Assembly (NCBI GenBank): GCA_016748015.1
Contig: JAAOMT010000436.1
Location: forward strand, 1,064,033-1,128,032
Reading direction: 5' to 3'
Length of the DNA: 64,000 nt
Source of the DNA: Geosiphon pyriformis uo1
Taxonomy: Eukaryota; Fungi; Glomeromycota
A program made the translations under genes and the position numbers. Of the stretch, positions 13,706-43,089 are shown piece by piece. Within the stretch, counting starts at the first letter, position 1. Every line of letters begins with the position of its first letter. The notes under the pieces were generated by a model. The model worked only from the letters and a program-made list of their open reading frames with translations, was not told the DNA's origin and ran no database searches.

Positions 13706-13949
13706 TGCTGAGAAATTTACTCTTCCTAAATTTAAAGGACTATCGTAATTAGCAACTTTTCGATTGAAGTTCAAAATATAGAAGCTTTTTTTCATACTCG
13801 AGAAGAATTTTCCTTCTTTCTATTGCCAAAAAATTTCTGTGAAACCCGATTATCAAAATAATTTGATACCTGATAGAATGACATCTAATATAAATTTATC
13901 TAGTGTACACTTAAAAATTTTCTGTGTTTCCTGATTTGCGAAAGTTGGC
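13706..13949. promoter_or_regulatory. Divergent NTH1/DBP9 promoter with RRPE-like AAAAATTTT at 13913-13921
   Basis: Head-to-head genes 244 bp apart. RRPE-type motif just upstream of a ribosome-biogenesis gene, but low specificity in AT-rich DNA. Confidence 0.4.
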
Positions 13950-16628: not shown

Positions 16629-16940
16629 TTTGATTCACCATAACAGTGTCTAATTATTTAAATTTAAATCTTGGAATTGATTTCCTAAAGAGGCCCTCAT
16701 AGACCAATACGATTGAAAGGTAAAAAATATCTCTTCACGAGAACTTTTATACAGGGTGCAACTTTTTACATACGGACCACAGAATTACTATGTACAAAGG
16801 TTTGCTCAACAAAGCAAATAGATACCAAAGAGATTCTCATTTAGAATGGTATGAAACGTTAGATTGCTTCTCAGGAAATCAATTCACAGAAAGGAGATCC
16901 TGTTTATGGACATTAGATACATACAGGGCGCCATAACACT

Positions 16941-20968: not shown

Positions 20969-21750
20969 TGTTATAGATGATTATTTGGGGTCTCAAATTA
21001 AATAACAAATCTGTAACTTGGTGCTCAATATCTTAACAATATTGATATTACTGGCACATTGGTTGTATCTGAAAGTTTTTAGAATGGAGTCTTTTGTATA
21101 ATGGACAAAGATTCAATAATAATGTAGTTGGTTGGTGAGTTGTGTTCCCAATTTCTGTCTTTAGCTTGGTGGTCAGTTTATTCTGACATTCATGCCCTTC
21201 TGGTAAGCTATCCGTTAATATATATATAATTTTACACTTATTTCTGGGTCTTTTACCAGACTATTCGTAACATCAATTACTCAGTGCTTTAATCCTTAAT
21301 CAGTTAATTTTCAACAAAAAAAATAAAAGAAATAAATAAATAAATAAAAATAAAGAAATGAGCCAAGGTGATACACAAGTTAGTATCTTATTAATAGCTG
21401 TGATCAAGAGCTATTGTTCTAGCATAGTTAAGTACTAATTATTATTAACATGAAGTGTTGATAGTAGAGAGTGGATTTGGATAGTAAATGATTTATTTAT
21501 TTAATATTTATAAATAGAAGATTTCTAACTAGAGATTCTGCTCTTTCTACTTCTAACGCTATCACTATATATACATAATTGATGTTCTATGAAATCGCTC
21601 ATATTTCCGAGTGATATGCTATGATTTTTTGAGCAATGTGCCATGATTTCTGACATTGCTCCACATTGCTGAACAATATGCTCACATGCTAAATACTATT
21701 CTCTTATTGGTCTACTATTTTCTATATCTGTTTTTTTTTTATGAGTAACA
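20969..21750 (-). repeat. 3' LTR of element B
   Basis: Direct repeat of 40495-40698 plus 41407-42084; preceded on the minus strand by PPT AAAAGAAGGAGATAA. Confidence 0.92.
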
Positions 21751-21763
21751 TTATCTCCTTCTT

Positions 21764-22174
21764 TTAATATTGAGCTCCATCGAAATCTTTGTTTTGAATT
21801 AATTCTAATACTTTTTTTTCAAGTATTGTTTGTTCAACTTTGTTTTTCATGTCTTCTATTTGTGTATTGTTCATTCTTCCCCATTGGTTAATGGTTATGG
21901 TTTCTATTTCAGAGTGTAATAGTATTTCTGGGTAGTTCCGAAATATGTTGTGTAGTCAGTACATTGTTTTAACATGTAGTGTTGAATTTGTTTTCTTTCC
22001 GATAAATTTTTCAATTTGTTGTATTATGTTTTGGTTAAATATTCTTTTGGATTTGTCGATATACAACTTCTGAATATTCAACTTTTGACTTAATTGGTAA
22101 TAATAGTATAATATTGGAAGTTGTTCTGTCCATTGCTTCTAATTCTCTTTTGTAAGTTCTTCTGTTGGTGCCAT
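21764..22174 (-). pseudogene. Element B ORF3, C-terminal part (joins 32534-32762)
   Basis: Removing insertion C and one CCAT copy gives an in-frame join ...GKIPIM|APTEELTKEN... ending DFDGAQY*. About 211 aa in total, with two internal stops (TAG, TGA) explainable as TGG and CGA transitions. Confidence 0.8.
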
Positions 22175-23072
22175 TGTTACCCAAGTAGAAAAACTGATCC
22201 AAAGTTATAAAAAAACATGACCAAAACATAACATAACACAGAATAGCGTGCAATAATATTGGATAACACATTATAATTTAGAATAATACAGAATAATGCA
22301 TTATAACATAGGATAACACAGAATAACATGTAATAACACCAAATAACATATTATAACATAAGATAACTAGTAATAACATAGAAAAACAAAGCAATTACAG
22401 AAATAGCAAAGCAATAGTTAGCAATAACAGAACAATCAGAAGTAATTCTGTAGAACAAAAAAAATGTATAAAATGAGTAGTTGTAAAAGTTAGAAAAACA
22501 TCCAGAGAGAAAATTAGACTTTCAGAAATCAATTAAACTCTCAGAGTCAATTAGACTCATAGGTTATAATTATTAAATACTCCTTCTTTCAAAGATAGTT
22601 GTTATCAACCGAAATGGAATTATATTAATAAAATATTTCTTTAATTTTTCAAATCCATGTTATTATTCACTACTTAAGCTGCTAGCACAATAGCTCTTGA
22701 TTATGGCTATTGACAGGACACTTATTTTTTATTTATTTTTTTTTTCTCTTTGTGGAGTGGTAACATAAGAAAATTGACTGTCTGAGAATAGATTTCGTGA
22801 TAGCTTGGTAAAAGAGGGAGGCTCCCCCTAGGTTTTGGATATTAACATTATCTTGATAGCTTACCAGAAGGGTAAAAAGACAATGCCAGACCCTAACAAC
22901 TGCACTTGTTAGCTTGGAGAAAAAAGCTCACATTTATGGAAAACATTGCAATTGACGAAAAACAAATTCTGTGCCTTATAACCAAAGAACTCAACAAGTA
23001 AATTCACATCTAGGAATAGACTTTCAAAGACTAATAACCAAGATTAACCCAACAGAATTACGCAGAAGACGC

Positions 23073-23552
23073 TGTTATCGGAGGTTTTTGGTCTCTTTTC
23101 TTAAATGTTGTTGATGCCTGTTTGTTGTGAATTCACATTTTCTGGATGTGGTTGAACCTCCAATAACTGAATTTATCTTCAAATTATCTCTTATAATTTG
23201 AACTGCTGGGCTTATAAGTGGAATGGCCAATTCCTTGCCAGTTACTTTATGTAGTTACATTGTAGTAAATGTCAACTTTTTCCCAGGAATTGCTTGTCTG
23301 GAAGCTCACTAAAAATATGTAGTTACTTTGCTGTGAAAGTCAACTCTTTTATAGGAATCTTGTCTGTAGNNNNNNNNNNNNNNNNNNNNCCTACTTTCTG
23401 TTATACTAATTAGATTATTTTAATTGAATCGTAATATGTGATAATTGATTAAATAATAAATGATAATTTGAAATGATATTAATATACTAATGAATTATAG
23501 GAATTATAAGGGTAATTTCATGCTAATTAATAGCTAAAATTCTACTGGTAAC
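23073..23552 (-). repeat. 3' LTR of element A (collapsed by assembly gap 23370-23389)
   Basis: Both sides of the gap match the two ends of 31493-32465. Confidence 0.92.
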
Positions 23553-24239
23553 ATAATCTCCTTCTCAAGACTGAGCTCCATCAAAGTCCAAGCACTATCT
23601 GTAATATTGAGATAGTGATCTAAAATAATTGAAGTAATCTGGTCTGAAAATTGTTGAAATTTCAGTTCTGTAAGTTTGCCAATATATTGGACTTTCATTG
23701 GTTGCAGTATTGGATTTTGTAGAACATTTTCACAAGTATTAAACAAGTCATAGAGTCTAAGAGCTGCTCTAAGTTTGTAGCGAGTGTTTGTTGGTCCAGC
23801 TGCTGTTTTGAATTCATTGTGGATTTGTTTTTGTATAACTTCAGGAGTGAGATTTGTTGCTTCAAGTTCCAGTTTTCGTTCATAAAGTGTTTTTCCAATT
23901 TGAAAGTATTTATAGATAGGGTGTGTTCATTGTTCTGTTCATTAAGAAGTAATAGAAGTTTTTGTTGCATTGTAGCATTTGGTGGAATGTCAATAGGGGC
24001 AATTAAAAGATTTTCTTTTAGTGCTTGCTTCAAAAGTCTTGGTAATCTATTTTCAGAGTGACTTCTTGTTTTTTTTCTATAGAGTAATAGTTCTGTAAAT
24101 GATTTACTACTGGGGCTGTGATTTCTTTCTGAATGTAATTAATTTGACTTCCATTAATCGTTATAGATAAGTTAGGGAGTGTTTTCAAGGCTAACATTAA
24201 TTTTTGGGATATTTGTTGAATATTTCGGGAAATAATCAT
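23534..24239 (-). pseudogene. Element A ORF3, unknown protein (~235 codons, two frameshifts), between integrase and 3' LTR
   Basis: Three overlapping ORF-track fragments. Frame repaired using the eroded copy at ~55048-55760: MIISRNIQQISQKLMLAL...RKKTRSHSENRLPRLL...IYKYFQIGKTL...RAALRLYDLFNTCENVL...VQYIGKLTELKFQQF. Confidence 0.8.
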
Positions 24240-27200
24240 GATAAAATTGACTAATTATGAAAAGAGAAAATAAAGAAAATGATTTTTGGATATGGGGTTT
24301 TTATTTGTTTTTGGGTTTGGGTGTTTTGTAATTATTTACTATTTTTGTCTTTGTGTTTTTATTAGAAAATTATTGTAAAATTTAAGTGTTCAAGTTTGGT
24401 TGTTGTTCTATTATAATTATTGGTTCTAAATTTTGGGGAATATCTTCAGGATTAATTAAAGAGGAATGTGTACCAATTTGTGGAATTAATGGTTCAGGAT
24501 TGTTTCTGGAATGATAGTGTTTCAATCTGTCTTCATGTGCAATTTTTGCTAATATTTTGTCATCAAGTCTTAACTTATATGATCCATTGCCTAGAATTTC
24601 GTGAATATAAAATGGTCCATCCCATTTGTTTTCAAATTTCCCACTCCATTGTTTTTTAGCCTTAGTTCTGTGTAAGAGAACTTTATTTCCAACTTTAAAT
24701 TCATTGGTAATAGATGGTAATTTGTTGTCATGTCTTTCTTTTTGTTGAGCTTGGGAATGTTCAATATAAGTTGCTGCTATTCTTCTTTTTCCTTCCAGTG
24801 TACTAAAAAGAGTGTAGGCTCTTCTTTGGAGTGTCTTTTAAAAGTTTTCTTCATTGATTGGTTGCACTGGATATGTTTCCACTGTGAAATTAATTGGTAA
24901 TGTTGCTGTCCTTTTATAAGTAAGATCAAATGGTGTGTGTTTCATAGTATCTTGTTTTAGTGTTCTGTATGCTAGTAACACTGATGGAATAAAGATATCC
25001 CATTTCTGCTCAAAGTCTGTTGAGACTTTGGCTAGAGATTTACACAATGTTCTGTTGAAACATTCTACAAGTTCATTTGTTTGAGGGTGATAAAGTGATG
25101 ATAGAGGTTTTTTGATATTGAACCGTTCACAAATTTCTTGTATCAAATTGTTCACAAAATGTGTTTTTTGATCAGATAAGAGTTCAATTGGGCATCTATG
25201 TTTACAGATAATGTCTTCATAGATGAAATTTGCTATTGATTTTGCATCTGCTCTTTGGATGGCTCTAGCTTCAGGCCATTTGGTAAGATAATTCACTGCA
25301 ACTGCAATATAACAATTTCTTTGGGTTGTGATAGGTAATGGTCCGACTAAATTAATTCCAACTCTGTCAAAAGGTTGTCCAACTTTGATTGGATTTAAAG
25401 GTTCTGTAGGGCAAGTTCCTCCTCTTCTTTGACAATTATTACAAGATTCTACATATTGTCGAATATCTTTTTGTATGTGAGGCCAAAAATAATGTTCAAG
25501 GGTTCTTTGAATTGTTCCCTCTTTTCCCAAGTGTGCTGAAGACGGATCTGTGTGCATGTTGTATAAAATTGTTTCTTTTTCATTCTCTTGTACTAATCTG
25601 AGTGGCTGGTTTGGTTTTCTGTGATTTTTATAATAGATTTTGTTCTGGTATATGAAATATTGTTTTAATTGGTGTTGTAAATAGTGTTTTTCACTTGAAG
25701 ACCAGTTTTCTAGCATGGTAAGAGTCTCCAAATAATTTTTAAGATTGCTGTAGTTTCTGGAATCCATTCTTGTTTGATTATTTTTGTTGGTAAGTTGGTA
25801 AGTTGTGGTGGAATTGTTGTTGGTATTAATCTTGTCTCATTCTTGAGAGGCTATTAACATTGGTATGTAGTTTTCCTAGTTTGTAGTATACAATATATCT
25901 GTAGTCTGCTAGGAAATCATTCCATTGAGACTGTTTGGCACTTTGTTCAGTTTTCTTTTTATTGAGCCATTTGAGGCCAATGTTGTCTGTTATTATGTTA
26001 AATTCTTTTCCATTCTTCAGATATTGTTGAAAATGGTTAAGAGCCCAAATAACTGCAACAGCTTCTAATTCAGTTGAGCCATATTTGAGTTCTGTTGGCT
26101 TGAGTATTCTGCTGGCATAGGCAATAACTTGTTCTTGGCCATTTTCATCTAATTGTGATAAGATGGCACCAAATGCTATGTGTGAGGCATCAGTAGCTAA
26201 TTGGAATCATTTGTTAAAGTCTGGGTAAGCAAGAACTGGGGCTGTTGTCAATTTTGTTTTGAGAATTTCAAAAGCTTTTTGTTGTTCTTCAGTCTATTTG
26301 TATAGTACGTTTTTGTTGGTAAGATAATTGAGTGGTTTGGTGATTTCTGAGAATCCTTTTATGAATTTTCAATAGTAAGAGGCTAATTCCACAAATCCTC
26401 TTAGTTCTGTAGTATTTCTGGGGGTTTGAAAGTTTTTGACAGCACTGATTGTTTCTGGATTTGGTTTGATTCCATCTTTACTAACTATGTGTTCAAGAAA
26501 GATCAAGCTTGTTTTTCCAAAGTGACATTTCTCAATATTTAACTTTAATACTGCTTTTCGTAATTGTTGAAAAACTTCTCGCAGATAAATGAGATGGGCT
26601 TCAAAGCTTGGTGAGTATACATCAGTATCATCAAGATAAACAATTACTGATTGCCATAAGAGCTCTTTATAGACAACATCCATAAGTCACTGAAATGTTG
26701 CTGGTGCATTGCAGAGTTCAAAAGGCATAACATTAAACTCATAATTTTCTCCTTGAGTGGTAAATGCTGTTTTGGGTCTATCTTTTGGGTTCATTTCGAC
26801 TTGCCAGTATCCACTTTCCAGGTCTAAAGTTAAAAAGAACTTGGCTTTTTCTAGAGCATCTAGCATGTCATCAATTCTTGGAAGAAAGTAGGCATCTCCA
26901 ATTGTAACACTATTCAGTTGTCTATAATCAACACAGAATCTGATTTTTCCGTTTTTCTTTTTAACTAAAACTACTGGTGAGGCCTAAGGACTTCTTGATG
27001 GTTGAATTAATCTATTATTGAGCATTCTTTGGACCTCTTCTCTGATGAATTGGTGGCTGGCAGGTGGCATTCGATAAGCTTGTTGACGTTTTGGTAGAGC
27101 ATCTCCTGTATGAATCTGATGTTGAACAATGTCTGTTTTTCTCAAGTCATTGTTGTCTTTTGCAAATATATCTGCAAATTCAGCTATCAATTGTTTCAAT

Positions 27201-27674
27201 TGTCTTTGTTGTTGAGGTTCTAAGAGACCCATATTGATTCAAGAGAGTTTTTCTTCCAACAAGTGGTAGTTTTCAGTAGTGGGAATGATATTTGGATTTG
27301 GAAATAGAGTGTACTTTACAATTTCGATAAAATTAGAGACAATTTGAGGGTTTTCATCTTGAAAGATATTGCTGTGTATGATTCCAATTTTTAATTTGTT
27401 TAATAAAACAATAGGGTAATTATTGGGGTTGTAGAATGTAACTCGAAATTTTTTCATTTCTTTGGGAATATAAACATTTGGAATTAATATTTTATGCTTC
27501 AAACAGATTTGTTCATTGGATTCAAAAATTTGTTGTGTAGTGGTGGGTTTTGAGCAAGTGTAAATTTCGTGATGTTCTTCAAAAGGTGAAATGGTAATTG
27601 GCTGAAGAAGTTGAAGAATCTGGTGAGATTTATTTTGTGTATTAAGAATTATGTTTACTGGGACTGTAAATCGT

Positions 27675-28060
27675 CCAGTTGAACCAAAACCTTGAGTTTT
27701 TCTTTTACTTTTTCCCAATTGTTCTCTGTTGTTTACTGATTGTAAACCCGAAATGTTGATTAAGGATAAGTAAATTGCTTGAGCAATTTTTTTAGCATGT
27801 TCAATTTTGAATGATTTGTTTGTCTCATTCTGTAATATGATGGTAATGTTTCCAGTGTATCCTGCATCTATAACTCCTCCTTTAATATTGATTCCTTTGC
27901 TTGCCAATGATGATCTGGAGGCAATTTGAACCATTGCTCCTGGTGGAATTTCAAGAGCAATTTTGAGATTGATTTTTGTCAAAGACTTTGGTTGGAGAAT
28001 CAAAGTATCTTTTCCTGGGTATCTTAGGTCATATCCAGCATCAATTTTGTGTGCTTTTTC
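27675..28060 (-). other. dUTPase domain within element A pol (between protease and RT)
   Basis: All five trimeric dUTPase motifs: AGYDL, SRSSLA, GVIDAGYTG, KIAQAI, RKTQGFGSTG. Confidence 0.95.
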
Positions 28061-31000
28061 TGGTCTGATTTCTTGGCCATGGTTGTCAAAATATTTAAGT
28101 TGTAGAGGTGGTTGCTTTTCAAGAAGATAGATAGGAGTGGTTGGTAGTTTTTCTACTAGTTCAGATACTCCAAATTCGATTTCATTTTCATCATTCTCAT
28201 TTGGCAGAGGAATGCTAAGAGCATAACATTCTAAACACCATTGGTCATTATAAGGCATAACACATTCTTCACACAATTGAATGTTCATTTGCTCTAATTG
28301 TTAAATTTGAGCTTTTTTGGTCGGATATGTGTGGCTTGCAATTTGGTGGTAGGTTTCTACTTCATCTTCATAATCGAATCCAGCTAATTCCATGGTATAC
28401 TCAATAAATTCAGCTTCTTTCATTTGGCGAACATCTTCTTGGGTGGCTCTATTGATCAATGCCATTGCTAGGTCAAAAATTATTTCAGCATCATGAGGGT
28501 AGTGGTAAAGTTTATTGAGAACACTGTTGTATGTTGCATCAAATAGTGTTCCTCTTCTGACTTTTTCCGAAATTAATAGAGCATATTGACAGGTTTGATC
28601 ACATACTCCTCCTCTCATTGCTATATCAATCCAATTGCATTCTTCTGGTAGCATTTCTTCACATGTAAAGCAAGGTGTGTTGTCCTATTTTCCACTTCTT
28701 TTTGGAGATCCAAATCGTTCTCTATGGCATGCTTTGCAAAAGTAACAGGTATGAGTTTCATATTTCTTTTCTGGAGAAATACATGCTCCCATTGATGAAA
28801 GTTTTTTGTTGCAATCTTTGCATTTGAGTGGAATATAGGGTGGTTGTTTCCATGGTTCTGGTGTAAAATATCTAATTTTCTTCCATCCCTTTAATTCTTC
28901 AAAAATCTCTTGTTCGGTTTTTTCAGCCCAATTGGATGTTGATCCAAGAGCCATGTAGGTTTCAGTAAGTGGCATTTTTTTCTCCTTTTCAAATTCAAAT
29001 ACTGGAGCTTTTTCTGATTGTTTGTTAAAAGTACCACAGATTGCAGATACTATGGTATATTGTCCTTGGTATGAGATTTTAAGTTCTTGAGTTTCCCAGT
29101 TCAGGTTTGCATTGGCCTTGAGAAGCCAATCATTTCCGACTAGAGCTTGGTATTGGGGTGCATCCATAACAAGAACTTTAACTGGAATGGTGATTCCATC
29201 AATTGAAAAAGGGAAATCATCAATTTCTCCTATTGGAGTCTTCTTTATACCATCAGCTATAACAATAACTGTTTGAGCTGGTCTGTTTACATTTTGTTTG
29301 AGTTGTTGCATTAGCTGGTAAGTAATGATACTTCCAGCTGATCCACTATCTAAGATTAAGCGAATGGGTTTTCCTTCCACTGTAGCTTCTGTGTACATGG
29401 CAGTAATTGCTTTCTGTTCATTAACTGCTGCATTACTAAGCAGAAATGGTGATTCATTTGCTTCAAATTCAAATGAAAATATATTTGACAGATTAGCATT
29501 TTGGGCAATTTGAGCTAATGGGATGGTATGGTTGGAAGGGTTTGATCTTAGTGCTGTAACTTCATTTTCAGAAAGTGCAGTTTGTTGAAAATTCGATTCC
29601 TCTGATATTGTAAGATAACTGAGTTAAGTGTGATAGTGATTGGGTCTTTGCTGACCCAAATTTTGGGGAACCAACTGGTTATTTGGATTGATTCTGTTGT
29701 GGTTATTCTGCAATTGATTTTGGGGTGTGAATTGGTTATGTTGAACCAATCTTCTTGCTGGTACTTAATATTGTTGAATGGGTGGTGTCTAATATGGCTG
29801 AATTGGTAAAAGTTGCTGATATTGTTGCTGTATTGATTGTAAAGCTGGTGGATAGTAGTTTTGATTTTGTGGTCTTGGTGAATAATAGGTTGGTGGTGGA
29901 AATTGGTAATAGGATTGTTGTGGTGAAGAGTAACGTTGATTACTCCTGTTTTGTTGGTCTCTTTGTAATTTCCTACAATCTCGTTTCCAGTGTCCTGGAA
30001 TTTCACAATAATGACAATTTTTAGATTGGTTGTTGGATGGTAATCCAAAATTGTTTTGGTTGCATCGTTGTGGTAGTTGATATCTTTGTGGTTGTTGCTG
30101 CTATTGTTGTTGGTTTGTAAAATAGCTTTCAACTTTCTTTGTGAGTTGGTCTATCTTTTCTTCAGCTGCTGAGCTGGTTTCTCTAATTGCAAGGTTTACA
30201 AACTTGGTGTGATTTGCTTCTTCCATTGCCATCTCATAGCTCTTTGCATGTCTAATAGCAATTGCTAAGTCTGCTGGAGCATGTGGATGGACTTTCTTAA
30301 TCAGTTTGTCTTTTAACCCTGCTATAAACTGATTCAGAATTTGAGCATCAGAATAGTAGTCATTGGTTTCTAATTGTCGAATTTGTCTGAGAAGTTTGTT
30401 AAATCTTCCAAGATAGGTCATAACAGATTCAGATGTTTCTTGTTTAATATTGCGAAAGCAGTTTCTGAGAGTGATAGAAGTATTGTTGTCAGTAAATTGT
30501 TGTAAAAAAGCATCTTTGAATGCTTGCCAGTTTTCAAATGGTTCTTCTAAATTTTCAAACCATTCTCCTGCTGTTCCTTGGAGAAAGTAGGGAATTGCTT
30601 TGAGCATTCTTGCTGCAATCCAACCATTTGCATCTCCTGCTTTTTGAACCTTGTTAAGCCATTCTTGAGGACTGGTATCATTGTTTTCACCAGTGAATTC
30701 TGGGATTTTTGCAATGTAAGCAGTTGTCATTTCTTCTTCATTTTCTGTAATTTCTTCTGGTTCTGATTCAGTTTCTTCACTTTTCAAGCTTTCTGAGTGA
30801 TTACTTTCGTTTTCCTGTAAGTAATCAATAATATTGGCACTTGTTGATATTGGTTCCTGCTGTTGAGCAGGATTTCTAGGTGACTGAAAATCTTCTGGTC
30901 TGGAAAAACGGCTAAGTGATGAACTTGGTGTTTGTGGTTGAACAAGTAAAATTAGAAATAGTGTAATAAAAAGTGGTAATTTGACACTGGTTCCTTGTTC

Positions 31001-31474
31001 AAGTGTTTGCAAGTGTTTGGCAGTTGTCTTTTGTAGTGTTGGAGTATTTGGAGTGGTTTTTGAGTATTGTTTCAATCTTTGTTTGTCTTTGTTGCTTGTT
31101 TCTGTCTCTGATTCAAAGTCAAAAGAGTATTTAGACTGTACTGGGTATTTTTCTTCACAATACTCAATAATATTAAAATTAAGTTCTTGGAAGTAGGTAG
31201 CAAGTGTTTCACTGTTCAGGTCTTCTGTTCCCAATTGTGAATAGTGCACTAAATTATTGTAGAAATTGCTTCTAACTTCTGAAATGTTGTAGTTTTCAAA
31301 AAGATAATTGTTAATGTGGTTTTCAATGTATTGATATACTGATTTCTTTACAACTTCAATTCCGTCTGGAATGTTGAATCTTTGCTTGCAGTGGGTGTAA
31401 ATTGACTGGTAATACTCTAGAGTTGCTGTGTCTGGTGTGGTCACCACTTTGAATTTGTTGTTGCTGTATTATTT

Positions 31475-31490
31475 CCATGGGAGAGCACCA
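31475..31490 (-). promoter_or_regulatory. Primer-binding site of element A (TGGTGCTCTCCCATGG)
   Basis: TGG-starting sequence 2 nt inside the 5' LTR; primer tRNA not assignable by eye. Confidence 0.85.
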
Positions 31491-31492
31491 AA

Positions 31493-32465
31493 TGTTACCA
31501 AAGGTTTTTGGTCTCTTTTCTTAAATGTTGTTGATGCCTGTTTGTTGTGAATTCACATTTTCTGGATGTGGTTGAACCTCCAATAACTGAATTTATCTTC
31601 AAATTATCTCTTATAATTTGAACTGCTGGACTTATAAGTGGAATGGCCAATTCCTTGCCAGTTACTTTATGTAGTTACATTGTAGTAAATGTCAACTTTT
31701 TCCCAGGAATTGCTTGTCTGGAAGCTCACTAAAAATATGTAGTTACTTTGCTGTGAAAGTCAACTCTTTTATAGGAATCTTGTCTGTAGAGTACTCTAAT
31801 AATTGTAATAAGAAAAGAAAAGAAAAATAAAAGAAATGTAAAAGAAATAAGTTTTTATCAAGAGAACCATTTTCTATCCAGGCCTGGAGTCACTAATAGT
31901 TTACTGAAATTGGTAGCTAATCAATTTCAAAATGTTAGTTGGGTTTTAGGGGGTTTTTCCAAGTACAATAATTAAAGAATTTGGTTTTTCGAATTATTTG
32001 ATATTTATTTCTTTTTGTGTGTATAGGAACGGTTTTAAAAGATAAATCTAAAGTAAGATACATTTTCCAGAAGAAAAAAGCTCTTCTTTTATACAACTTG
32101 TTGTAGTACTAGTCTATGAACTTGCACTTTTTCTCTTTGCTCAAATTTCGGTGAACTAAAGATACATTTTAATGAACTACAAGTTATTTCGCTGAACTAT
32201 TAATTAATTTGGATGAACTATTCATAATTTCGGCGAATTTCTGTAAATTTCGGTGAATTTTTGAATGTTACAAAGTTCAGAATATTGTGTAATTTGATCA
32301 TCCTACTTTCTGTTATACTAATTAGATTATTTTAATTGAATTGTGATATGTGATAATTGATTAAATAATAAATGATAATTTGAAATGATATTAATATACT
32401 AATAAATTATAGGAATTATAAGGGTAATTTCATGCTAATTAATAGCTAAAATTTTACTGGTAACA
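31493..32465 (-). repeat. 5' LTR of element A (973 bp)
   Basis: TGTTACC...GGTAACA termini; repeat of 23073-23552 and inverted homolog of 55730-56774. Confidence 0.95.
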
Positions 32466-32533
32466 ATGCATCCCCAATAATTAAGAACACCAAACATTAC
32501 CAGTTCTATTACCCACCAAGTTTACCTATAACA

Positions 32534-32762
32534 CCATAATAGGTATTTTCCCAAAAGTGTTCTTTACTTTTTCTATTATATTATCTGACCAGTTTTTATC
32601 ATTCTTTGGTAACCGCTGATATGGTGTATTCTTTGTCTTTCTTTTGATGTTTTGATAGCAAATTGTTTGGTTGTTAATGATAATTTCCATGTTTAAAGGT
32701 TGTTGACTTAAGGCCTGGAATAATTGTTGAGCTATAGTGTAAATATGATTTGGTATTTCCAT
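32534..32762 (-). pseudogene. Element B ORF3, N-terminal part
   Basis: MEIPNHIYTIAQQLFQALSQQPLNMEIIINNQTICY... starts ~60 nt after the pol stop; cut by LTR C at the CCAT TSD. Confidence 0.8.
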
Positions 32763-32822
32763 TTTTCTTGGTTGCCTTTGTCATGTATACTGTGTCTTTA
32801 TATACTCTTTTATTGTTTAATT

Positions 32823-35800
32823 TTACATGTTTGGTTCAATGATTATGATTGGTTCCAGATCTCATAAAATCTCATTTGGTTGAACCAGTATTTATTATAT
32901 TCTTAATTGTAGAATGTTATTAGTAAATGATGATGCTATTTAGTGATATGGTTTCAGTCAATCACCATGTGCTACTTTGGCTAAGATTTTGTTATCCCAT
33001 CTTAGTTTATAAGCTCCATTTCTAAGAATTTCTTCTATGTGAAATGGTCCATCCCATTTGGGATCAAATTTTCCACTCCATTGTTTTTCCGCTTTGGTAT
33101 GATGTAGAAGTACTTTGTCTCTAATCTTGAATTCAACTGGTTTATCTGGTAATTGGTTATCATGTTGTTTTTTTTGCTTTTCTTGAGACTTTTGAATGTT
33201 ATTAGCTGCTTTTTGTTGTCTGTTTTCTAGTGTTTCTATTAGGTCATATGTTTTTCTCAACAATGTTTCTTGGAAATTAGCTTCTGTTATTGGTTCTATT
33301 GGATATGTGCTGACTTCTCTCTCCACTGGTAATGTTGCTGTCCTACTATATACCAATTCAAATAGTGTTGCTTGTGTAGTATCTTGTCTTATTGTTTGAT
33401 AAGCAAATAATACTAATGGTATAAACAAATTCCATTTATCTTGGTTTTCTTGACTGATTTTGGCAATTGTTTCACACAGTGTTCTGTTAAACTTTTTGAC
33501 TAGTCCATTTGTTTATGGATGATATAGTGATAATAATGGTCTTTTTATCTCAAATCTTTGACTTAATTCTATTAATGTTCTATTCACAAAATGAGTTCCT
33601 TGATCTGATAGTAGTTCTTTTGAACATCTGTGTCGACATATCAAATCTTGATGGATGAATTTGGCAACAAATTCTGCATCTGCTCTTTGAATGGCTTTTG
33701 TTTCTGGCCATTTTGTAAGATAGTTCATGGCTACTGCAATATATCTGTTGCCTCTGCTGGTGATTGTTAATGGTCTGACTAAGTTAATTCCAATGTGATC
33801 AAATGATTGTCCTACTTTGATTGGTCTTAATGATTCACTTGGTCTTGTTCCACCTCTTTTTTGACAAGCATTACAATTTTGAATATATTGGATGATGTTT
33901 GGATACATTGATGGCCAATAATATCTCTTTCTGATTCTTTTCATGGTCACTTCTTTATGAAAATGTTCTGTTGTTGGGTCTAAGTGCATGTTGAATAATA
34001 TTGTCTCTTTCTCTGGTTCTGTGATTACTCTAGTTGGTTGATCTGGATTTCTTCTGTTCTTCCAGTAAAATATATTTTGATGGTTAATAAAATTTTTTGA
34101 TTGTTGTTTTATGTTCTTTTGTTCTTTTTGAGATAATTTCTCCTTGAACAATTGGGTATTTATATAATATTAAAGTTGTTGTATTTTTGTATATTTATCT
34201 TTTGTTATATTTTTGGTTGGAATGTTTTTAGACTTGTCTCATTCATAACAGTCTGTTGGCATTTTTATTGTCTTTTCCCTTTTTATAATGTACTGTATAA
34301 TTAAATGGTGAAAGTTTTATTTTCCATCTGGCATGGTAATTGTTTGTAAATTCTTGTTTCTGGATTGAAGTCAATCCTTTGTGATTAGTGTACACTTCAA
34401 ATTTTTGACTCAAGTATTTTTTCCATTTGATAACAGCCCAATAAATAGCTAAGTGTTCTAGTGCTGGAGTTCTATAGTTTTTCTCAGCTAGACTTAAGTT
34501 TCTACTGGCATAAGCTACTGGATGTTCTCTTTCATCTGATTTTTTCTGTAATAATACTGCTCCTAATGCTTGACCTAATGTATCAGTGGTGATTATGAAT
34601 GGTTTGCTATGATCTGGATACATCAATATTGGAGCTTGGATAAGCTTTCTTCTTAATGTGTTAAATGCTTCTTGTTGAGCTTCAGTTCATTCATACTTTA
34701 TATTCTTGGTCTGTAGATGGTGAAGTGGCTGAGCCAGTTTTGAAAAGTCTTTGATAAAACGGTGATAATAGTCTGTGAAACCTAAAAATGCTCTTAGTTC
34801 TGTCAAGTTAGTTGGTACCAGAAAGTTTTTAACTACTTCAATCTTGTCTGAATCCATTTTGATTCTATTTTTGCTCACTACATGTTCCAAAAACTTGAGT
34901 TTGGTTTTTCCAAAGAAACATTTGGTTGTATTTAGTTTTAATTCTGCTCTTTTTAATCTTTCGAACACTTGTTAGAAATAATGCAGATAATTATTAAATG
35001 TTTTTGAGAACACATTGATGTCATTCAAGTATATGACTACTGATTTCCATAGTAATCCAGTATAGACAATTTCCATAAGCCATTGGAATGTTGCTGGAGC
35101 ATTCATCAAGCCAAATGACATGACTTTAAACTCAAAATTTTTTTTTCTTGTGGTGAATGCTGTTTTTTCTTTGTTGGCTGAATTCATGGCTACTTGCCAG
35201 TAACTACTATCTAAATCTAGTGTTGAGAACCATTTATTTCCTTTAAAAGCGTCGAATAGTTCTTGGATCTTTGGAGTTAGATAGCTATCATCTTTTGTTA
35301 CTTTATTCAGTTTCCAGTAGTCTACACAAAAACGAATTTTTCCATTTTTTTTATGAACCAATACCACTGGTGATGACTATAGACTCATTGATGGCTGAAT
35401 TAGCCTATTGTTAAGCATTTGGTTAATTTCTTGATGAATGATCTTATGGCTAACTGGTGGTACTCTGTATGCTCTTTGTTTAATTGGCATTGTATTTCCA
35501 GTCTTAATCTGATGCTAAATGATGTTGGTTCAGCCAAATTCATTTTCGCTAGCAAAGATGTCATTGAAATTGTTGAGTAACATTTTGAGTTGCATCTGTT
35601 AAAGTGAATCTAGATTTCTCATGTTCATCTGTTCTAATTGTTTTAGTTGGAGCAAATAACATTTACTTTTTCTGTAAATGGTTTGTGATGTAATGTCCAC
35701 ATATCCACAAAGCTGTGGAAAATCTGGAATGTGATTTGGTGGTTGATCCTCAACTTCAGTAGTTAAATATCCAATAATAATTCCCTTTGGTATTTCAATA

Positions 35801-38800
35801 ATCTTTTTAATTGCATAATAGATAGAAATTTTGATGTTTTTGGGGCTTTTGGGTGATATGTAGAGATTGGTGAGTCCAATCTCCCCTGATTTACAAATAG
35901 TGGCTTCTGCTTTAAACAATTGAGCTTGATTCCTTACTTCTTTTTTTATGGCTAATATATACTGGTCATATGGCGGAATGGAAATTGTTTGACGGATTGA
36001 GATAATTTCTCTTTTGTTAACAATTTCTTCCTCTGCCATATTAACTGGTATATCTATTCTACCTGTGGATTCAAATCCCTATATCCCTCTTGCTGTTATC
36101 CTTAATTCTTTCCTGTTTTCTACTGATACTAATTTAGCTATTTTCACCAAAGGCAGGAATATTGCCTGTGCTATCTTTTCATTTGGCTCTATGGTATAGG
36201 CCTTTTCTGAGTCATTTTGTAGCATAGCAATGATATTTCCTACATACCCTGTGTCAATTATTTCTCCTCTGATGTTGATTCCTTTTTTTGCTAGGCTATT
36301 TCTAGATGTTAATTGAACCATAGTTGTTGTTAGAATTTCTAGAGCTATTTTGAGATCAATATATGTGCACAAATTTGGTTTTAATTTGATGGCTTCTTTT
36401 CCCAGATATCTCAAATCAAACCCTGCATTGGTATCATGCACACATTCTGGCATGATACTTTTATTATTGTTACTATACCATTTGAGTTCTTGCTCCTTAG
36501 ATAGATCAGAAAGTGCAATGTATATTTCAGGGTTTGAATTGGAGTCTGAATCGTTGATATTTTCATTGTCATATTGAACAGAGCTGAAAACAGTGTTTTC
36601 CTTATTATTGTTGTCAGAGTTTGAATCAGGATTGAAAAGTTGATTCCAATTCTGATGTGCAGTTGCTCATTGGTTCATCTTCTTCTGAGATCATGTAGAT
36701 CATGCATGGTGGTGGATTGTAAATGAGGTCACACTTATTACAATACTGGAAGTCACATGGGATCAAACAGTGGTCACATAATCAGGTGTTTATTTCTTCT
36801 AAGCATTGTTCCTGCTCTTCTCTGGTGGGTGCTAATTACTGGTAATGTTCATGAAATTCCTCTGGGTTGTCCTTAATGTTGCCAAAGATGTTGAAAGTTT
36901 GGACGTATTCAGGTTCAAGAAGAGATAAAGGGTTGTTTTTTATTTTCAGTAGTTTACTGGTTGTTACACCTTTTGTTTTCGCATATGTCATTCTCCAGAG
37001 TTCATGTTCATTGTAGAAATATCTTTTTAATTGTTACAATGCTCTTTTTCAGATGTTATTAATAGAAGTTTTTTTGCATACCTAGTTGTTTATTAAGATG
37101 GTATACTGGCATGTCTTATTACATATCTTTCCTCACCCAGGAATGTCATTCCACATTCTTTCGTTAGGCAAGATAGTTTCACATGCGAGACATGGTTGGT
37201 TGTCCCATTTTCCTTGTCATTTCAGTCATCCAAAGCATTCTATGATGCATGGGCGGCAATAGAATTTTGTTGTTATGACATATTCTTTATCATTGCCATA
37301 ACAAGTGCCTATTGATGACAGTTTCTTGCTGCAATTAACATACTCTAATTTTGGTCAACAATAATTGGATGGTTGTAATAAAGTATAAGCATATGGACTG
37401 TAAGTGCTGCTGGTGAGGATAGTTTCTTCTTTTTTCTTCTTTCTCTTTCCTTTGTCAGTTTTTTTCTACTTTCAGGTTGTAGATTCATCTTGATCATTAT
37501 CTATTTCCCAGGCTTGGCTGGTATTCCAAGTAAGTTTTTTGTTCTCCTTCTCTTTTCCTTTGTCATCTCAAGAAAGTATCAGTAGTAGCTCGTTATGGTT
37601 TTCATCAGCCCAAGAGACTTGGTATGCTTCCCAGGTAGGTTTTTCTTTGTCTTCCTCGAATTTGATAAGTGAGGTTGTCAAATTGGTGGTTTTGAAATGG
37701 CCACACATGGCTGGTACATGTGTGTGTTGACCATTTTGGCTCAGTTGGAGCTCTTGCATTGTCCAGTCCAGTATGGCATTGGTTTTAGATAACCAGTCAT
37801 TCTCTACTAATACCTGATATTGGGTTGCTTCCATCACTAGAACTTTAATGGGAATGATGATGCCATTAACTTCAAAAGGGAAGTCATCAATCTCACCAAT
37901 AGGAGTTTTGGTTGCTCCATTGGTGGTTATGATTCTGGCACTGGCAGTACAATCAACTCGGCAACCTAATTGGTCCATGAGTTGTTTTGTAATGATGCTG
38001 CCAGCTAATCCACTGTCTAGAATCAGTTTGATGGAGTGGCCATCAACTTTAGCATTAGTGTACATGGCAGTAATGGGTTTTTCTTCCAGAGTGGCTCCAC
38101 TAAATAACGGTGTGGTCGACGGTTCTTTGAGTTTAAATGGGAAGATGGCATCCAGTAATTCGTTCTCAATAATAGTAGCTGGCAAAATGTTACTGGTAAG
38201 TGTTGGGTGTTGGTTGGCTTTCAGGTTATTGGGTTGAGCATCTTTTGGGGTAATCAGTAGACTTAAATAGTTCTGGGTGTTGGGCATACCCAGTGTCCAA
38301 ATTCCATTGTTAAGATCTTGCTGATTGTGTAGAAGAACTAAGAATTGGTTGGTGGACTACCATCAATGATCTCCAGCTTTGTTGAGTCAATCTCGGCCTT
38401 TGAGTTCTGTTTTGAGATAAGTTCTGTGGTGGTGTTTGAATTTGTTGGGGCTGATATATTACCTGAGGCTGTGGCTGATAAATGGGTTGTGGCTATGGCT
38501 AATAATTTGCTGGTGTCATTGGTTGATAAATTGGTGTTTAATATACTGGTGGTTGATAAGGTGGCTGCTGCATCATAGGTAGGTAATTCTGATGATATGG
38601 TTCTGAGTTTGGTGGGTTATTTGGAATTTGAAACCAGCAATCAGGGTTTTGATATTGATTTCCCGATTATTGGTTATTTAAGTGATGGCAGCAATCGATT
38701 TGTAGATGTCCTTGTTTACCACAATAGTGGCAAACACGTATTTCCTGTTGCCACTGTTGATTGGTTGACAATAATGAACATGACTGATTCTGGAAACGAT

Positions 38801-40490
38801 TTGCATTTCCAGAATTATTGCATCATTGTAGTAGTTAATAAATTGCATGATTGTCAATTAAGTATTTCTCTAATTTTTGATTGATGGAATCACTAAATTG
38901 TTTTAATTTGGAATCCAATTCAGATGATCCATTTATTACTAGATTAACGGCTTGGGCATGGTTAGCTTCGAGTTCAGCAGCTTCAAAATCTCTGGCATTT
39001 GTGACAGTTGCTTACAGATCAATGGGATGCATTGGACATATGCATTGCAGAATGCTACTGCATAATCCGCGAATAAACTGATTTAGAATCTGGGCTACTG
39101 TGAAATAATTGGGGTCAATGGCTTGGATATGGTGCAGATTTCTGTGGAAGCATCCTAAGTAAGTAGTGACTGCTTTATTTTCTTCTTGTTTAATGGTAGT
39201 GAAGGTGTTTGCTAGTCTGTTAATGCTGTTATTATTGCTAAAGTATCTTAAGAACTCTATTTTGAATGCATTAAAATCTTGGGGTTTGTTGACTTGGCAG
39301 TATTCTGAAAAAAATATGAGATGGCTTGTATGGCTTTGGCATCATTCCATCCATTAGCTGCAATGGCTTTCCCCACATCATTTAGCCATACTTGGGCATT
39401 GTTCTTTTTGCCAGTGAATTTTTTGAGTTTGGCTATTGGTGTGTATGCTATTAGATCTAAGTTGGGTTGTGGTGGTTGTTGAAGTGGTACTAGTGGCTGT
39501 TGAATCTGCTGGTGTGGTTGTTGTAGTGGCTGGCCAATTGGTTCAACTGGTGGTAGATTAATGATAATAACAGAAGATAGGTCTGGTTGATTAATTAGAT
39601 TGGAATTCTGATTGTTCTGATTTGGCAGTGGTTGAATATTCAGAGTTTTGATTTCCGGGTTTTTTAAATTTGAATTTTGCTGGGTTTGAAGATTCAGGAT
39701 TCCAAATTCCGAGTTTTCTGTGATTGAGTTTTAGTAAGTAAATTCTTGATCTTTAGATTTTTTTTCTTCCTCTTCTTCTGATTCTGTTATTTCCCAAAGA
39801 CTCGTGTTTTCAAAATCTGGTTAAGATGGTGGTGATTGGAATCCTGATGGCGTTGGCGATCATAATTTAAATTCTTCAAAGTAATCGCCATATGGTCCTA
39901 ATAACTCTGTTTTTTATTGTTTACTTTAAAATGAGAAGTGTCTAAAGATTGATGTCATGTTTGATATGGATGCGTCTGTTGATAAGATGTTGATGGCACT
40001 TCCGGGTGTATAATGGTATGATAGATGAGTGGGTGATTCAACTTGAGTTTTCTTCCAATTGGGTGGTTGGATTTGTTTTGGTGTTACTGCTGGAGTTTGC
40101 AATTTTCCTTTGCCTTTATCTGCGTAGGTGATGGGAAATTGTTGTTGTGTATACTTTTCAATAGTTTGATTGATTTCCCTAATAATTGGTGCGAAACTGT
40201 AGTTTCTTGGTAAGCTGGTATGTTGAAATAATTCTGTATAAAAATTTTCTCTTGTGGATTCAATGTTAACTGTTCCTCCTAAGCAGTCTGTGATTTTATT
40301 GTTGACATAAAAGTTAAAGACTGATTCCACTGGGAAATAATTATTGTTCAACCCTAATTGTTAACTGTACTATTGGAATAAGGATTTGGCAAATCCTAAA
40401 TGGTTTGTTTCTATGATTTCTGATTTTGCTGCTTTTGGATGATTGTTAATGGTGCTGGTTCTCTGTAGGATTATATCTCACAGAGAACAC
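32823..40490 (-). pseudogene. Element B gag-pol polyprotein, many stops and frameshifts
   Basis: Gag; CCHC CHYCGKQGHLQIDC ~38695-38745; protease LILDSGLAGSII ~38000; dUTPase; RT (RFCVDYWKLN, YLND); RNase H (HPVAYASRNL); integrase (KWPETKAI, SDQGTHF, KFDPKWDGPFHI); C-terminal LEPIIII shared with A. Confidence 0.92.
36060..36445 (-). other. dUTPase domain within element B pol
   Basis: AGFDL, SRNSLA, IIDTGYVG, KIAQAI, RGI*GFESTG (eroded motifs I-V). Confidence 0.92.
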
Positions 40491-40492
40491 CA
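40477..40492 (-). promoter_or_regulatory. Primer-binding site of element B (TGGTGTTCTCTGTGAG)
   Basis: 2 nt inside the 5' LTR; resembles the complement of an elongator Met/Ile-type tRNA 3' end (not verified). Confidence 0.8.
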
Positions 40493-40494
40493 AA

Positions 40495-42084
40495 TATTAC
40501 AGATGATTATTTGGGGTCTCAAATTAAATAACAAATCTGTAACTTGGCACTTAATATCTTAACAATACTGATATTACTGGCATGTTGGTTGTATCTGAAG
40601 GTTTTTAGAGTGGAGTGCTTTGTATAATGAACAAAGATTCAATGATAATGTAGTTGGTTGGTGAGTTGTGTTCCCAATTTCTGTCTTTAGTTTGGTGGTG
40701 TTACAGTTTAAGAATTTAGAAAAAAGAATCATAAAAATAATACAAACTATTCAATCATAATATAGCACAGTAATAATCTTAGAAAGGTAATGATTAACAT
40801 AGTAGCAAACACCATCTTGCAATAGTGGCAAGCACCAGTTCACAATAGCAGCCAACACCAACTGGTGATAGCAGCAAACACCAGGTTGAAATATCAAAAA
40901 GAAAGTATTTTCTCATAGAACTACAAACATGTATATATACNNNNNNNNNNNNNNNNNNNNNNNNNNNNNNNNNNNNNNNNNNNNNNNNNNNNNNNNNNNN
41001 NNNNNNNNNNNNNNNNNNNNNNNNNNNNNNNNNNNNNNNNNNNNNNNNNNNNNNNNNNNNNNNNNNNNNNNNNNNNNNNNNNNNNNNNNNNNTAGAAAAG
41101 TGCTAAAGACCATTAACATTCTGTGTTTCTAGATTAGAGAAACACATCAGGCAATTGCAAGGATAGCCTCAGAGAAGACCCCAGACAGTGGGTAGATTTC
41201 AGTTCAGCCTCTGAAAAGGAGTACATAAACACACACAACAATCAAGAATTAAAGAATAACTTACATCGCAACAGTAAAAAGAAAGCCTTCAGTGTAACAG
41301 TGACATTATCACACAAATAGAACTGAGGAACTCACGAAAGACTGATTGCAATTAAAGTGGGATATCAGCAATTAAATATAACAAGAAAACCATCCCGTAA
41401 CAGTGGCCAGTTTATTTTGGCATTCGTGCCTTTTTGGTAAGCTATCCGTTAACATATATATAATTTTACCCTTATTTCTGAGTCTTTTACCAGGCTATTC
41501 ATGATGTCAATTACTCAGCACTTTAATTCTTAATCAGTTAATTTTCAACAAGAAAAATCAAAGAAATAAATAAATAAATAAAAATAAAGAAATAAGCCAA
41601 AGTAATACACAAGTTAGTATCTTATCAATAGCTGTAATCAAGAGCTATTGTTCCAGTGTAGTTAAGTACTAATTATTATCAACATGAAGTGTTGATAGTG
41701 AAGAGTAAATTTGGATAGTAAATGATTTATTTATTTAATATTTGTGAATAGAAGATTTCTAACTAGAGATTCTGCTCTTTCTATTACTAACGCTACTGCT
41801 ATATATACATAATTGATGTTCTATAAGATTGCTCACATTCCTGAGTGATGTGCTATGATTTCTTGAGCAATGCTTATATTGCTGAACAATGTGCCCTAAT
41901 TTTCTAACATCACTCCACATTGCTGAGCAATGTGCTGTGTTTTCTGATATTGCTCCACATTATTGAGCAATGTGCCATGATTTCTGATATTGCTCTACAT
42001 TGTTGAGCAATATGCTCATGTGCTAAATACTATTCTCTTATTGGTCTACTATTTTTTATATCTGTTTTCTTTTTATGAGTAACA
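40495..42084 (-). repeat. 5' LTR of element B, interrupted by insertion D
   Basis: Matches 20969-21750 on both sides of 40699-41402; has extra copies of a ~37-bp unit at ~41865-42020. Confidence 0.9.
40699..41402. mobile_element. LTR insertion D (solo LTR or collapsed element; spans N gap 40941-41092)
   Basis: TGTTAC...GTAACA termini; TSD GTGG at 40695-40698 and 41403-41406; absent from the other B LTR. Confidence 0.85.
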
Positions 42085-42978: not shown

Positions 42979-43089
42979 ATCCCCTGGTCACAATGAGAGC
43001 ATTGAGTAGCCAGAGAAATACACTTCCCTTTTTCCCTTTTCCTTTTTTGTTTTTTTGTTATTTCTTTCAATACCCCTTTGTCCACTGCT

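What the first reader, a model, noticed from the sequence alone, without database searches (positions are those of the whole stretch)
28220..28830. Unrecognised ~200-aa multi-cysteine domain between protease and dUTPase
Seen in A: CKDCNKKLSSMGAC...YFCKAC...GK*DNTPCFTC...GVCDQTCQY...LCEECVMPYNDQWCLEC. Seen in B (~36720-37350): (Y)VNCSKKLSSIGTC...FYCRPC...GKWDNQPCLAC...KICNKTCQY...LCDHCLIPCDFQYCNKC. The CxxC spacing and the KKLSSxG and GKWDNxPC motifs are conserved while flanking acidic linkers are not. Standard Ty3/Gypsy Pol has no such domain here. Inference: a multi-zinc module (chromatin reader, RING-like E3 or nucleic-acid binder) that might steer integration, since these integrases lack a chromodomain.
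Basis: partly seen in the sequence, partly recalled or inferred. Interest (0 to 1): 0.75.

Follow-up and report, generated by a model that had tools for sequence, protein, structure and literature searches.

The report
Unnamed three-zinc domain in fungal retrotransposons
A family of gypsy-type jumping genes, present as hundreds of decayed copies in the fungus Geosiphon, carries between its protease and its dUTP-destroying enzyme a conserved, unnamed domain of about 200 residues with 13 fixed cysteines, which is predicted to bind three zinc ions and likely works as a protein adaptor inside the particle rather than as a guide for where the element inserts.

Summary
The domain is real. Copies A (28193-28846, minus strand) and B (36695-37360) are 35% identical with a coding pattern of change, in frame between protease and dUTPase of two decayed Ty3/Gypsy elements. 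Thirteen cysteines are fixed across five lineages. All 240 listed word-search hits are Geosiphon pyriformis; one stop-free relative (P0268) comes from an unnamed assembly. Pfam, PHROGs, NCBIfam, PDB and fold searches gave no significant match. Predicted anatomy: two treble-clef zinc fingers, a four-helix bundle and a C-terminal cysteine cluster, set off by variable linkers. It fails the PHD, RING, LIM, tandem-MYM, badnavirus and deaminase patterns and is net acidic. The integrase is a separate reading frame behind a family-wide stop, so the domain cannot act as a fused chromodomain substitute. My best reading (0.4) is a non-enzymatic adaptor that keeps the dUTPase at the reverse-transcription complex; no partner is shown. 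The scan earlier noted smaller, apparently different Cys/His modules in the same slot, and the split integrase, in another fungal genome. Verdict: new variant of a known kind, modest interest.

The parts
28193..28846 (-). Cys domain, copy A (218 codons, two premature stops at 28687 and 28303)
28727..28822 (-). Finger 1, C-x2-C-x24-C-x2-C, predicted treble clef (Cys codons start at 28822, 28813, 28738, 28729)
   Evidence: pLDDT 81-88; weak LIM/ZZ/ribosomal-protein-like rows
28589..28672 (-). Finger 2, C-x2-C-x19-C-x3-C, likely a treble clef whose last two Cys begin helix 1 (28672, 28663, 28603, 28591)
   Evidence: model confidence only 62-72
28418..28597 (-). Predicted four-helix bundle (Y-x3-I-x3-V-x2-G-T-P-x2-A-A ... 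G-x-T ... K)
   Evidence: pLDDT 86-92 over residues 81-130; no clear fold match
28226..28273 (-). C-terminal cluster C-x2-C-x3-C-x4-C-x2-C (third Cys decayed to Tyr in this copy)
   Evidence: low model confidence, not folded alone
36695..37360 (-). Cys domain, copy B (lineage B; several stops; first Cys decayed to Tyr)
31493..32465 (-). 5' LTR of element A (TG...CA ends; primer-binding-like TGG site follows)
23073..23553 (-). 3' LTR of element A, with an assembly gap at 23370-23389; 8 differences from the 5' LTR in 461 aligned bases
29969..31468 (-). gag of A: Ty3 capsid / Retrotrans_gag and one CCHC knuckle
29126..29389 (-). Aspartic protease of A
   Evidence: Asp_protease_2 E 5.7e-10
27674..28063 (-). 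Trimeric-type dUTPase of A
   Evidence: PF00692 E 1.5e-23
25826..26965 (-). RT and RNase H of A, ending in the family-wide stop TAA at 25828-25826
24382..25836 (-). Integrase of A as a separate +1 frame with an ATG at 25767; H2C2, rve, SH3; no chromodomain match
23534..24198 (-). ORF3 region of A, unnamed, shared with the partial copy at 55088-55736 but not with B
20969..42084 (-). Element B (LTRs 20969-21750 and 40495-42084, 4-base duplication ATAT), into which A is inserted (4-base duplication ACGC/ATGC)

Best explanation
The stretch is a conserved accessory domain of the Gag-Pol frame of one Ty3/Gypsy clade, placed between protease and dUTPase; it is predicted to fold as two treble-clef zinc fingers, a four-helix bundle and a third zinc site, and it likely works as a non-enzymatic protein adaptor that would hold the neighbouring dUTPase at the reverse-transcription complex inside the particle. 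Shown: its place in the single long frame, its selective conservation, 13 fixed Cys, inheritance together with protease and dUTPase, net acidic charge, and separation from the integrase. Predicted: the folds and the zinc sites. Inferred: that it is packaged with Gag-Pol; that the short conserved hydrophobic islands in both linkers are protease sites; that its partner is a protein of the particle. I put about 0.9 on 'real, unnamed, zinc-binding accessory domain' and about 0.4 on this mechanism.
For: One frame of 1853 codons from gag to RNase H with 12 scattered stops in A. Among 368 stored proteins with the domain, the protease lies upstream in 88 of 89 and the dUTPase downstream in 144 of 147 (3 unclear). 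Lineage by domain agrees with lineage by protease in 58 of 59 and by dUTPase in 111 of 114 proteins. At the 13 Cys columns 2149 of 2377 residues are Cys and 161 are Tyr, the one-step G>A product. Cys make up 17 of 219 residues in the domain and 3 of 845 elsewhere in stop-free P0268. The 53 columns shared by the lineages are mostly Cys, Pro, Gly and hydrophobic residues, with 4 Lys, 3 Asp and no His: no obvious catalytic set. Charge is 25 K+R against 40 D+E in P0268. Precedent for zinc modules beside a retroelement dUTPase: the nucleocapsid-dUTPase fusion of Mason-Pfizer monkey virus (PMC1802613, abstract; PMC4531489, passages) and the extra knuckle after the dUTPase in rotifer Juno elements (PMC5408684, passages).
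Against: No binding partner is shown by any search. Co-occurrence with the dUTPase is weak evidence: all lineages descend from one ancestor, the proteins were retrieved by the domain itself, and it is just as constantly beside the protease. The linker to the dUTPase varies (41 residues in A, about 80-84 in B), so there is no fixed geometry, and a cleavage-like island sits just before the dUTPase. Unlike nucleocapsid it is acidic and has no CCHC knuckle. The domain evolves faster (A/B 35%) than protease (61%), dUTPase (53%), RT (59%) and integrase (57%), which would also fit a conflict with the host. Model confidence is low for finger 2 and the C-terminal cluster.
Confidence: 0.4

Rival explanations
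1. Host-facing accessory factor: the protease would release the domain, which would bind a host protein to counter silencing, cytosine decay or RNA retention, in the manner of retroviral accessory proteins or CERV of the worm element Cer1.
For: Faster divergence than the enzymes; variable linkers with conserved hydrophobic islands on both sides; basic clusters just upstream of finger 1 in P0268 and lineage A; strong host pressure on these elements (CpG observed/expected 0.18-0.19 in A and B against 0.91 at 8-19 kb). CERV has a Cys-rich loop needed for RNA export (PMC10309623, abstract and passages).
Against: CERV comes from its own spliced mRNA, whereas a domain inside Gag-Pol would normally be freed only in the particle (established retroelement biology). 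No sequence or fold link to such proteins was found. RING pattern not met.
Confidence: 0.25
2. Integration-steering chromatin reader: the acidic zinc module with conserved Trp residues would read histone tails and lead the integration complex to heterochromatin.
For: No Pfam chromodomain in either integrase; two fixed Trp and an acidic surface; A is inserted in B; weak structural rows include ZZ- and PHD-like domains.
Against: It is not on the integrase polypeptide: both elements stop after RNase H at the same codon, and no variant at 10% or more appears at that stop among 1063 contigs laid. PHD pattern not met. The structural rows are tied with LIM and ribosomal treble clefs at Z about 4. One nested insertion is expected in a genome that is 41.2% LTR sequence (PMC11952901, passages).
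Confidence: 0.13
3. Integrase-recruiting adaptor: because integrase is a separate reading frame, the domain would be the hook by which Gag-Pol brings it into the particle.
For: Both oddities occur in the same two elements, and a separately made integrase needs some route into the particle (inference).
Against: Earlier scan notes report a split integrase in another fungal genome, while no look-alike of this domain is on record there, so the split likely exists without it; unchecked here. No binding was tested.
Confidence: 0.1
4. Second nucleic-acid chaperone: finger 1 would bind the element's RNA or cDNA like a nucleocapsid domain.
For: Finger 1 keeps a fixed K-K-L after its first Cys pair and is neutral to basic; treble clefs of ribosomal proteins and PARP are among the weak structural rows.
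Against: The whole domain is net acidic; Gag already has a CCHC knuckle; no CCHC or GATA-type signature beyond a spacing that pairs Cys across the two predicted fingers.
Confidence: 0.1

Closest known systems
dUTPase-bearing fungal Ty3/Gypsy elements (PosPlaTy3-5 of Postia placenta; Phanerochaete and Tuber elements; PMC2864245, passages)
   Same: LTR element with a dUTPase between protease and RT.
   Different: Those are described in a survey of chromodomain elements; the passages seen mention no Cys domain before the dUTPase. Here there is a 200-residue Cys domain, no chromodomain match and a separate integrase frame.
Nucleocapsid-dUTPase fusion of betaretroviruses (PMC1802613, abstract; PMC4531489, passages)
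   Same: A zinc-binding module directly N-terminal to a retroelement dUTPase.
   Different: There it is the basic CCHC nucleocapsid from Gag and the fusion is shown; here an acidic all-Cys module behind the protease, unrelated in pattern, with fusion or release unknown.
Juno elements of bdelloid rotifers (PMC5408684, passages) and Burro elements of planarians (PMC6431247, passages)
   Same: Gypsy-like elements with a dUTPase between protease and RT and extra zinc or protein-interaction domains in the polyprotein.
   Different: Juno's extra part is one knuckle after the dUTPase; Burro's are recognisable captured host domains. This domain matches no library family searched.
Treble-clef zinc fingers (LIM half-domain, ZZ, ribosomal L24e/TRASH, FCS)
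   Same: Finger 1 overlays on them (rmsd about 2-3 A over 37-47 residues, Z up to 4.2); finger 2 fits the single C-x2-C-x19-22-C-x3-C spacing (pattern recalled).
   Different: No match is significant or stands above the others; the full LIM and tandem MYM patterns fail; the helical bundle and last cluster have no counterpart in these families.
Smaller Cys/His modules between protease and dUTPase noted earlier by this scan in another fungal genome (unchecked AI notes)
   Same: Same slot, same kind of host, unnamed.
   Different: Most are 33-45 residues with His; their quoted C-x-H-x12-C-x2-C motif is absent here, and sequence look-ups found no look-alike.

Membership tests
Ty3/Gypsy LTR retrotransposon | Paired LTRs with TG...CA ends and a short target duplication | tested here: met
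   (A: ACGC/ATGC; B: ATAT)
Ty3/Gypsy LTR retrotransposon | Order gag, protease, RT, RNase H, integrase | tested here: met
   Pfam hits; integrase is in its own frame
Chromovirus | Chromodomain at the integrase C-terminus | tested here: not met
   Only H2C2, rve and SH3_Tf2-1 in A and B at E up to 0.1; for B the read ended at a stop shortly before the frame's end
Chromovirus | Placement in the chromovirus clade by an RT tree | not tested
   no reference RT set was fetched
PHD finger | C4-H-C3 ligand pattern (recalled) | tested here: not met
   0 of 10 representatives; no His among shared columns
PHD finger | Cross-braced two-zinc fold | tested here: inconclusive
   weak rows only; finger 2 is poorly modelled
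RING / RING-like E3 | C3HC4 or C3H2C3 pattern (recalled) | tested here: not met
   1 of 10 representatives, through non-conserved residues
RING / RING-like E3 | RING fold and E2 binding | tested here: inconclusive
   finger 2 overlays on parts of RING chains at Z 3.0-3.5, expected for any treble clef; binding not testable
LIM domain | Two fingers joined by two residues, His at ligand 3 (recalled) | tested here: not met
   0 of 10; fingers are 18-21 residues apart; best sequence row E 0.69, best fold row E 0.046
MYM / FCS / TRASH fingers | Single C-x2-C-x19-22-C-x3-C finger (recalled) | tested here: met
   10 of 10 for finger 2; a short pattern, weak on its own
MYM / FCS / TRASH fingers | Tandem MYM pattern or a Pfam profile match | tested here: not met
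   0 of 10; none among the 25 families listed for 48 members
Badnavirus second Cys motif | CX2CX11CX2CX4CX2C in the coat protein (PMC4926197, passage) | tested here: not met
   0 of 10; lies behind the protease
Zinc-dependent deaminase | H-x-E 23-36 residues before P-C-x2-C (recalled) | tested here: not met
   0 of 10; the P-C-x2-C is present but the His is not shared by lineages
Nucleocapsid-dUTPase fusion | CCHC knuckle fused to the dUTPase | tested here: not met
   no CCHC pattern in the domain
Nucleocapsid-dUTPase fusion | Stable fusion product in particles | not testable with these tools
   needs processing data

The most novel reading that the evidence does not exclude
A new fold family of retroelement accessory protein: a protease-released, three-zinc adaptor that links a separately translated integrase, or a host chromatin or silencing factor, to the particle, and that helped this clade overrun the Geosiphon genome; the protease-dUTPase junction would be a slot where fungal Gypsy elements repeatedly try out zinc adaptors.
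Probability: 0.15. Interest if true: 0.7.

Novelty: new variant of a known kind. Interest (0 to 1): 0.36.

Why it matters
It adds an unnamed, selectively kept domain to the parts list of Ty3/Gypsy polyproteins, in a fungus where LTR sequence is 41.2% of the genome (PMC11952901, passages). Several hundred 'hypothetical proteins' of G. pyriformis turn out to be decayed pieces of it, which matters for annotating that genome. A stop-free relative (P0268) makes the domain testable at the bench. If it counters host silencing or recruits the split integrase, it would be a new kind of retrotransposon accessory function. As it stands it is a narrow, lineage-restricted addition with no shown function.

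Tried and rejected
Library searches with no significant match to the domain: Pfam, PDB sequences (one search hit only RT and dUTPase parts of its profile), PHROGs, NCBIfam, annotated phages by tblastn. Fold searches: Foldseek PDB and viral libraries, none at E up to 0.001; VIA best Z 6.5 for the helical bundle (2vqc, rmsd 2.9, 63 aligned) and 4.1-4.2 for finger 1, all within the range of common arrangements; absence here does not show a new fold, and the C-terminal cluster was not folded alone. Related loci: none in viral contigs or metagenome contigs, with the domain or with the clade's protease. A search of long proteins with the P0268 domain returned only itself among 93 candidates, and missed known Geosiphon proteins of that length, so it is insensitive. 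No whole genome was held, so no genome-wide census. The ESM Atlas gave no answer. No RNA holder listed. A complex prediction of domain plus dUTPase trimer gave no verdict. Internal duplication of finger 1 and finger 2: no similarity. Spacer after the dUTPase as a decayed second dUTPase: E 0.14, unsupported. Deaminase, PHD, RING, LIM, badnavirus and CCHC patterns rejected. The local A/B alignment for the domain failed (14 codons) and was replaced by the global one; the P0268 charge row was cut wrongly and replaced. Literature: no paper held all terms; listings showed no title describing this domain. The G. pyriformis genome paper is not held, so it and its supplements, and Repbase or GyDB entries, may mention the domain unseen.

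Full report
Setting. The window holds two decayed LTR elements on the minus strand. Element A (23073-32465) has LTRs that differ at 8 of 461 aligned bases and sits inside element B (20969-42084) with a 4-base duplication. Pfam gives the order capsid, CCHC knuckle, protease, [unmatched stretch], dUTPase, RT, RNase H, integrase. In A one frame of 1853 codons runs from gag to the end of RNase H with 12 scattered stops. The host is likely Geosiphon pyriformis, a fungus: all 120 listed hits (347 found among 494 candidates) and all 120 listed hits (231 among 758) carry that name.

The two copies are 35% identical over 202 codons, with identity 0.52/0.65/0.38 at the three codon positions and 35 of 71 identical residues on different codons. 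Twelve Cys pair up, more than in any of 500 shuffles. Aligned to a profile, 368 of 369 stored proteins hold the domain; they fall into lineages A (157), B1 (103), B2 (102), C (5) and D (1), and 13 Cys columns are the majority residue in each lineage that covers them (lineage C does not cover the last two). Of 2377 residues at these columns 2149 are Cys and 161 Tyr. Cys is kept in 90% of cells, against 78% for the other 40 shared columns, and most departures are one-step C>T or G>A changes. The elements are strongly CpG-depleted (0.18-0.19, against 0.91 at 8-19 kb), which fits decay after methylation (inference). The two stops and the Cys>Tyr change of copy A are not shared by most of the depth among 5247 contigs of run X1. 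The stored Geosiphon proteins are gene models on broken copies, many with internal gaps, so missing parts in them say nothing.

Distribution. A profile search of 1.84 billion representatives found 520 proteins at E up to 0.001; only the best 150 were listed, and the profile included linkers and the start of the dUTPase. Of the 127 new ids, 20 were looked up: 19 are G. pyriformis and one, P0268, is from an unnamed ENA assembly on a 19-kb contig. The other 106 with a domain hit are at least 67% identical to a named Geosiphon protein, whereas P0268 reaches 48%. P0268 is a stop-free 1064-residue frame with protease, the domain with all 13 Cys, dUTPase and the start of RT; it is 43% and 37% identical to A and B in the domain. 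The 370 unlisted hits were not seen, so distant relatives are not excluded. Viral and metagenome contig scans found nothing.

Anatomy. The pattern is C-x2-C-x24-C-x2-C, 18-21 residues, C-x2-C-x19-C-x3-C, about 100 residues, C-x2-C-x3-C-x4-C-x2-C. AlphaFold2 on the P0268 domain gives mean pLDDT 67 and pTM 0.42, with a confident run of helices at 84-97, 102-113, 117-132 and 136-143. A second model of the two fingers from lineage C gives pLDDT 81-88 for finger 1 and 62-72 for the rest. Finger 1 overlays on treble clefs of several unrelated families with nothing to choose between them; the bundle's best row is Z 6.5. Three zinc sites are therefore predicted, not shown. The domain is flanked by linkers that differ between lineages (19-80 residues upstream, 41-84 downstream), each with a short conserved hydrophobic island, and a third island follows the dUTPase. 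I read these as possible protease sites; that reading rests on recalled retropepsin preferences. The domain is net acidic.

Inheritance. Where a neighbour is present in a stored protein, the protease is upstream in 88 of 89, the dUTPase downstream in 144 of 147 and RT downstream in 22 of 22. Lineage by domain agrees with lineage by protease in 58 of 59 and by dUTPase in 111 of 114; a tree of 27 chosen rows recovers A, B and C with strong support, P0268 on a long branch. So the domain is an old, vertically kept part of this clade. It diverges faster than protease, dUTPase, RT and integrase and about as fast as RNase H (38%). ORF3 of A has no match in B.

The integrase is apart. In A and B the long frame ends at the same codon just after RNase H, and integrase begins in the +1 frame, with an ATG about 60 bases on in A. 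Among 1063 contigs laid on this junction none of the listed variants at 10% or more touches the stop, and loose ends from other subfamilies keep the same ATG-GAT start behind different upstream sequence. The domain is thus not on the integrase chain, unlike a chromodomain (established knowledge; recalled). Rare frameshifting at the junction is not excluded.

Mechanism. No call shows a partner. A domain within Gag-Pol is packaged and processed in the particle (established retroelement biology), the shared residues look structural rather than catalytic, and the charge disfavours general nucleic-acid binding. That leaves a protein adaptor. I favour the dUTPase or the reverse-transcription complex as its place of action (0.4), because unrelated retroelements also put zinc modules beside their dUTPase: Mason-Pfizer monkey virus (PMC1802613, abstract; PMC4531489, passages) and rotifer Juno elements (PMC5408684, passages). 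I came to these two leads through earlier notes of this scan. Rivals: a host-facing factor like CERV of Cer1 (PMC10309623, abstract and passages) at 0.25; chromatin reader 0.13; integrase hook 0.1; nucleic-acid chaperone 0.1.

Known context. A dUTPase between protease and RT is known in fungal, rotifer and planarian Gypsy-like elements (PMC2864245; PMC5408684; PMC6431247; passages only), and extra domains in such polyproteins are common (PMC3248453; PMC11011659; passages). Passages of PMC10508981 and PMC5911963 describe other separate frames, not a split integrase. G. pyriformis is 41.2% LTR sequence (PMC11952901, passages). Searches for this domain in print found nothing (listings 18, 19, 49, 68, 97, 98, 106, 116); the genome paper was not available. 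Ligand patterns for PHD, RING, LIM, MYM, TRASH, GATA and deaminases are recalled; the badnavirus motif is from PMC4926197 (passage).

Verdict. The element is an ordinary member of Ty3/Gypsy by structure. The domain is real, unnamed in the libraries searched, narrow in known distribution and of unshown function. New variant of a known kind; interest 0.36.

Noticed in passing
window 25750-25840 and 34170-34260 (minus strand): Integrase is a separate +1 frame behind a stop shared by A, B and the family's contigs; A has an ATG at 25767 and B has ATA at about the matching place.
   Followed up: partly
window 23073-32465 inside 20969-42084: Element A is nested in the 3' part of element B; duplications ACGC/ATGC (A) and ATAT (B). 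B's LTRs are 86-92% alike, A's about 98%.
   Followed up: yes
window 23600-40400: CpG observed/expected 0.18-0.19 in the elements against 0.91 at 8-19 kb; A has 12 stops in its long frame although its LTRs differ by under 2%.
   Followed up: partly
window 53736-56776 (+): Third, more decayed partial copy of the A family: integrase, ORF3 and one LTR only.
   Followed up: partly
window 23534-24198 (-) and 55088-55736 (+): Unnamed ORF3 of the A family, 61% identical between the two copies over 122 residues, no Pfam match; B has a different 3' region.
   Followed up: partly
window 27240-27670 (-): About 140 codons of unassigned spacer between dUTPase and RT, also in B and P0268; its end matches the tail of Spuma_A9PTase (E 7e-5).
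   Followed up: partly
window 43006-49721 (+) and 61584-64000 (+): Two LINE-like elements (endonuclease, RT, RNase H; zinc knuckle), about 71% alike over 536 bases.
   Followed up: no
window 50847-51773: Tandem array with a 57-base period, copies 67-84% alike.
   Followed up: no
window 58220-61524: Long AT-rich inverted repeat (arms over 1 kb, about 85-88% complementary), foldback- or MITE-like.
   Followed up: no
window 10814-19088: Likely host genes: PIGO/PIGG GPI ethanolamine-phosphate transferase (10814-12044), a helicase C-terminal domain (15648-16181), a Zap1-like C2H2 protein (17512-18252).
   Followed up: no
proteins P0273, P0304, P0367: Domain lineage and dUTPase or protease lineage disagree; may be further lineages or chimeric gene models.
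   Followed up: no
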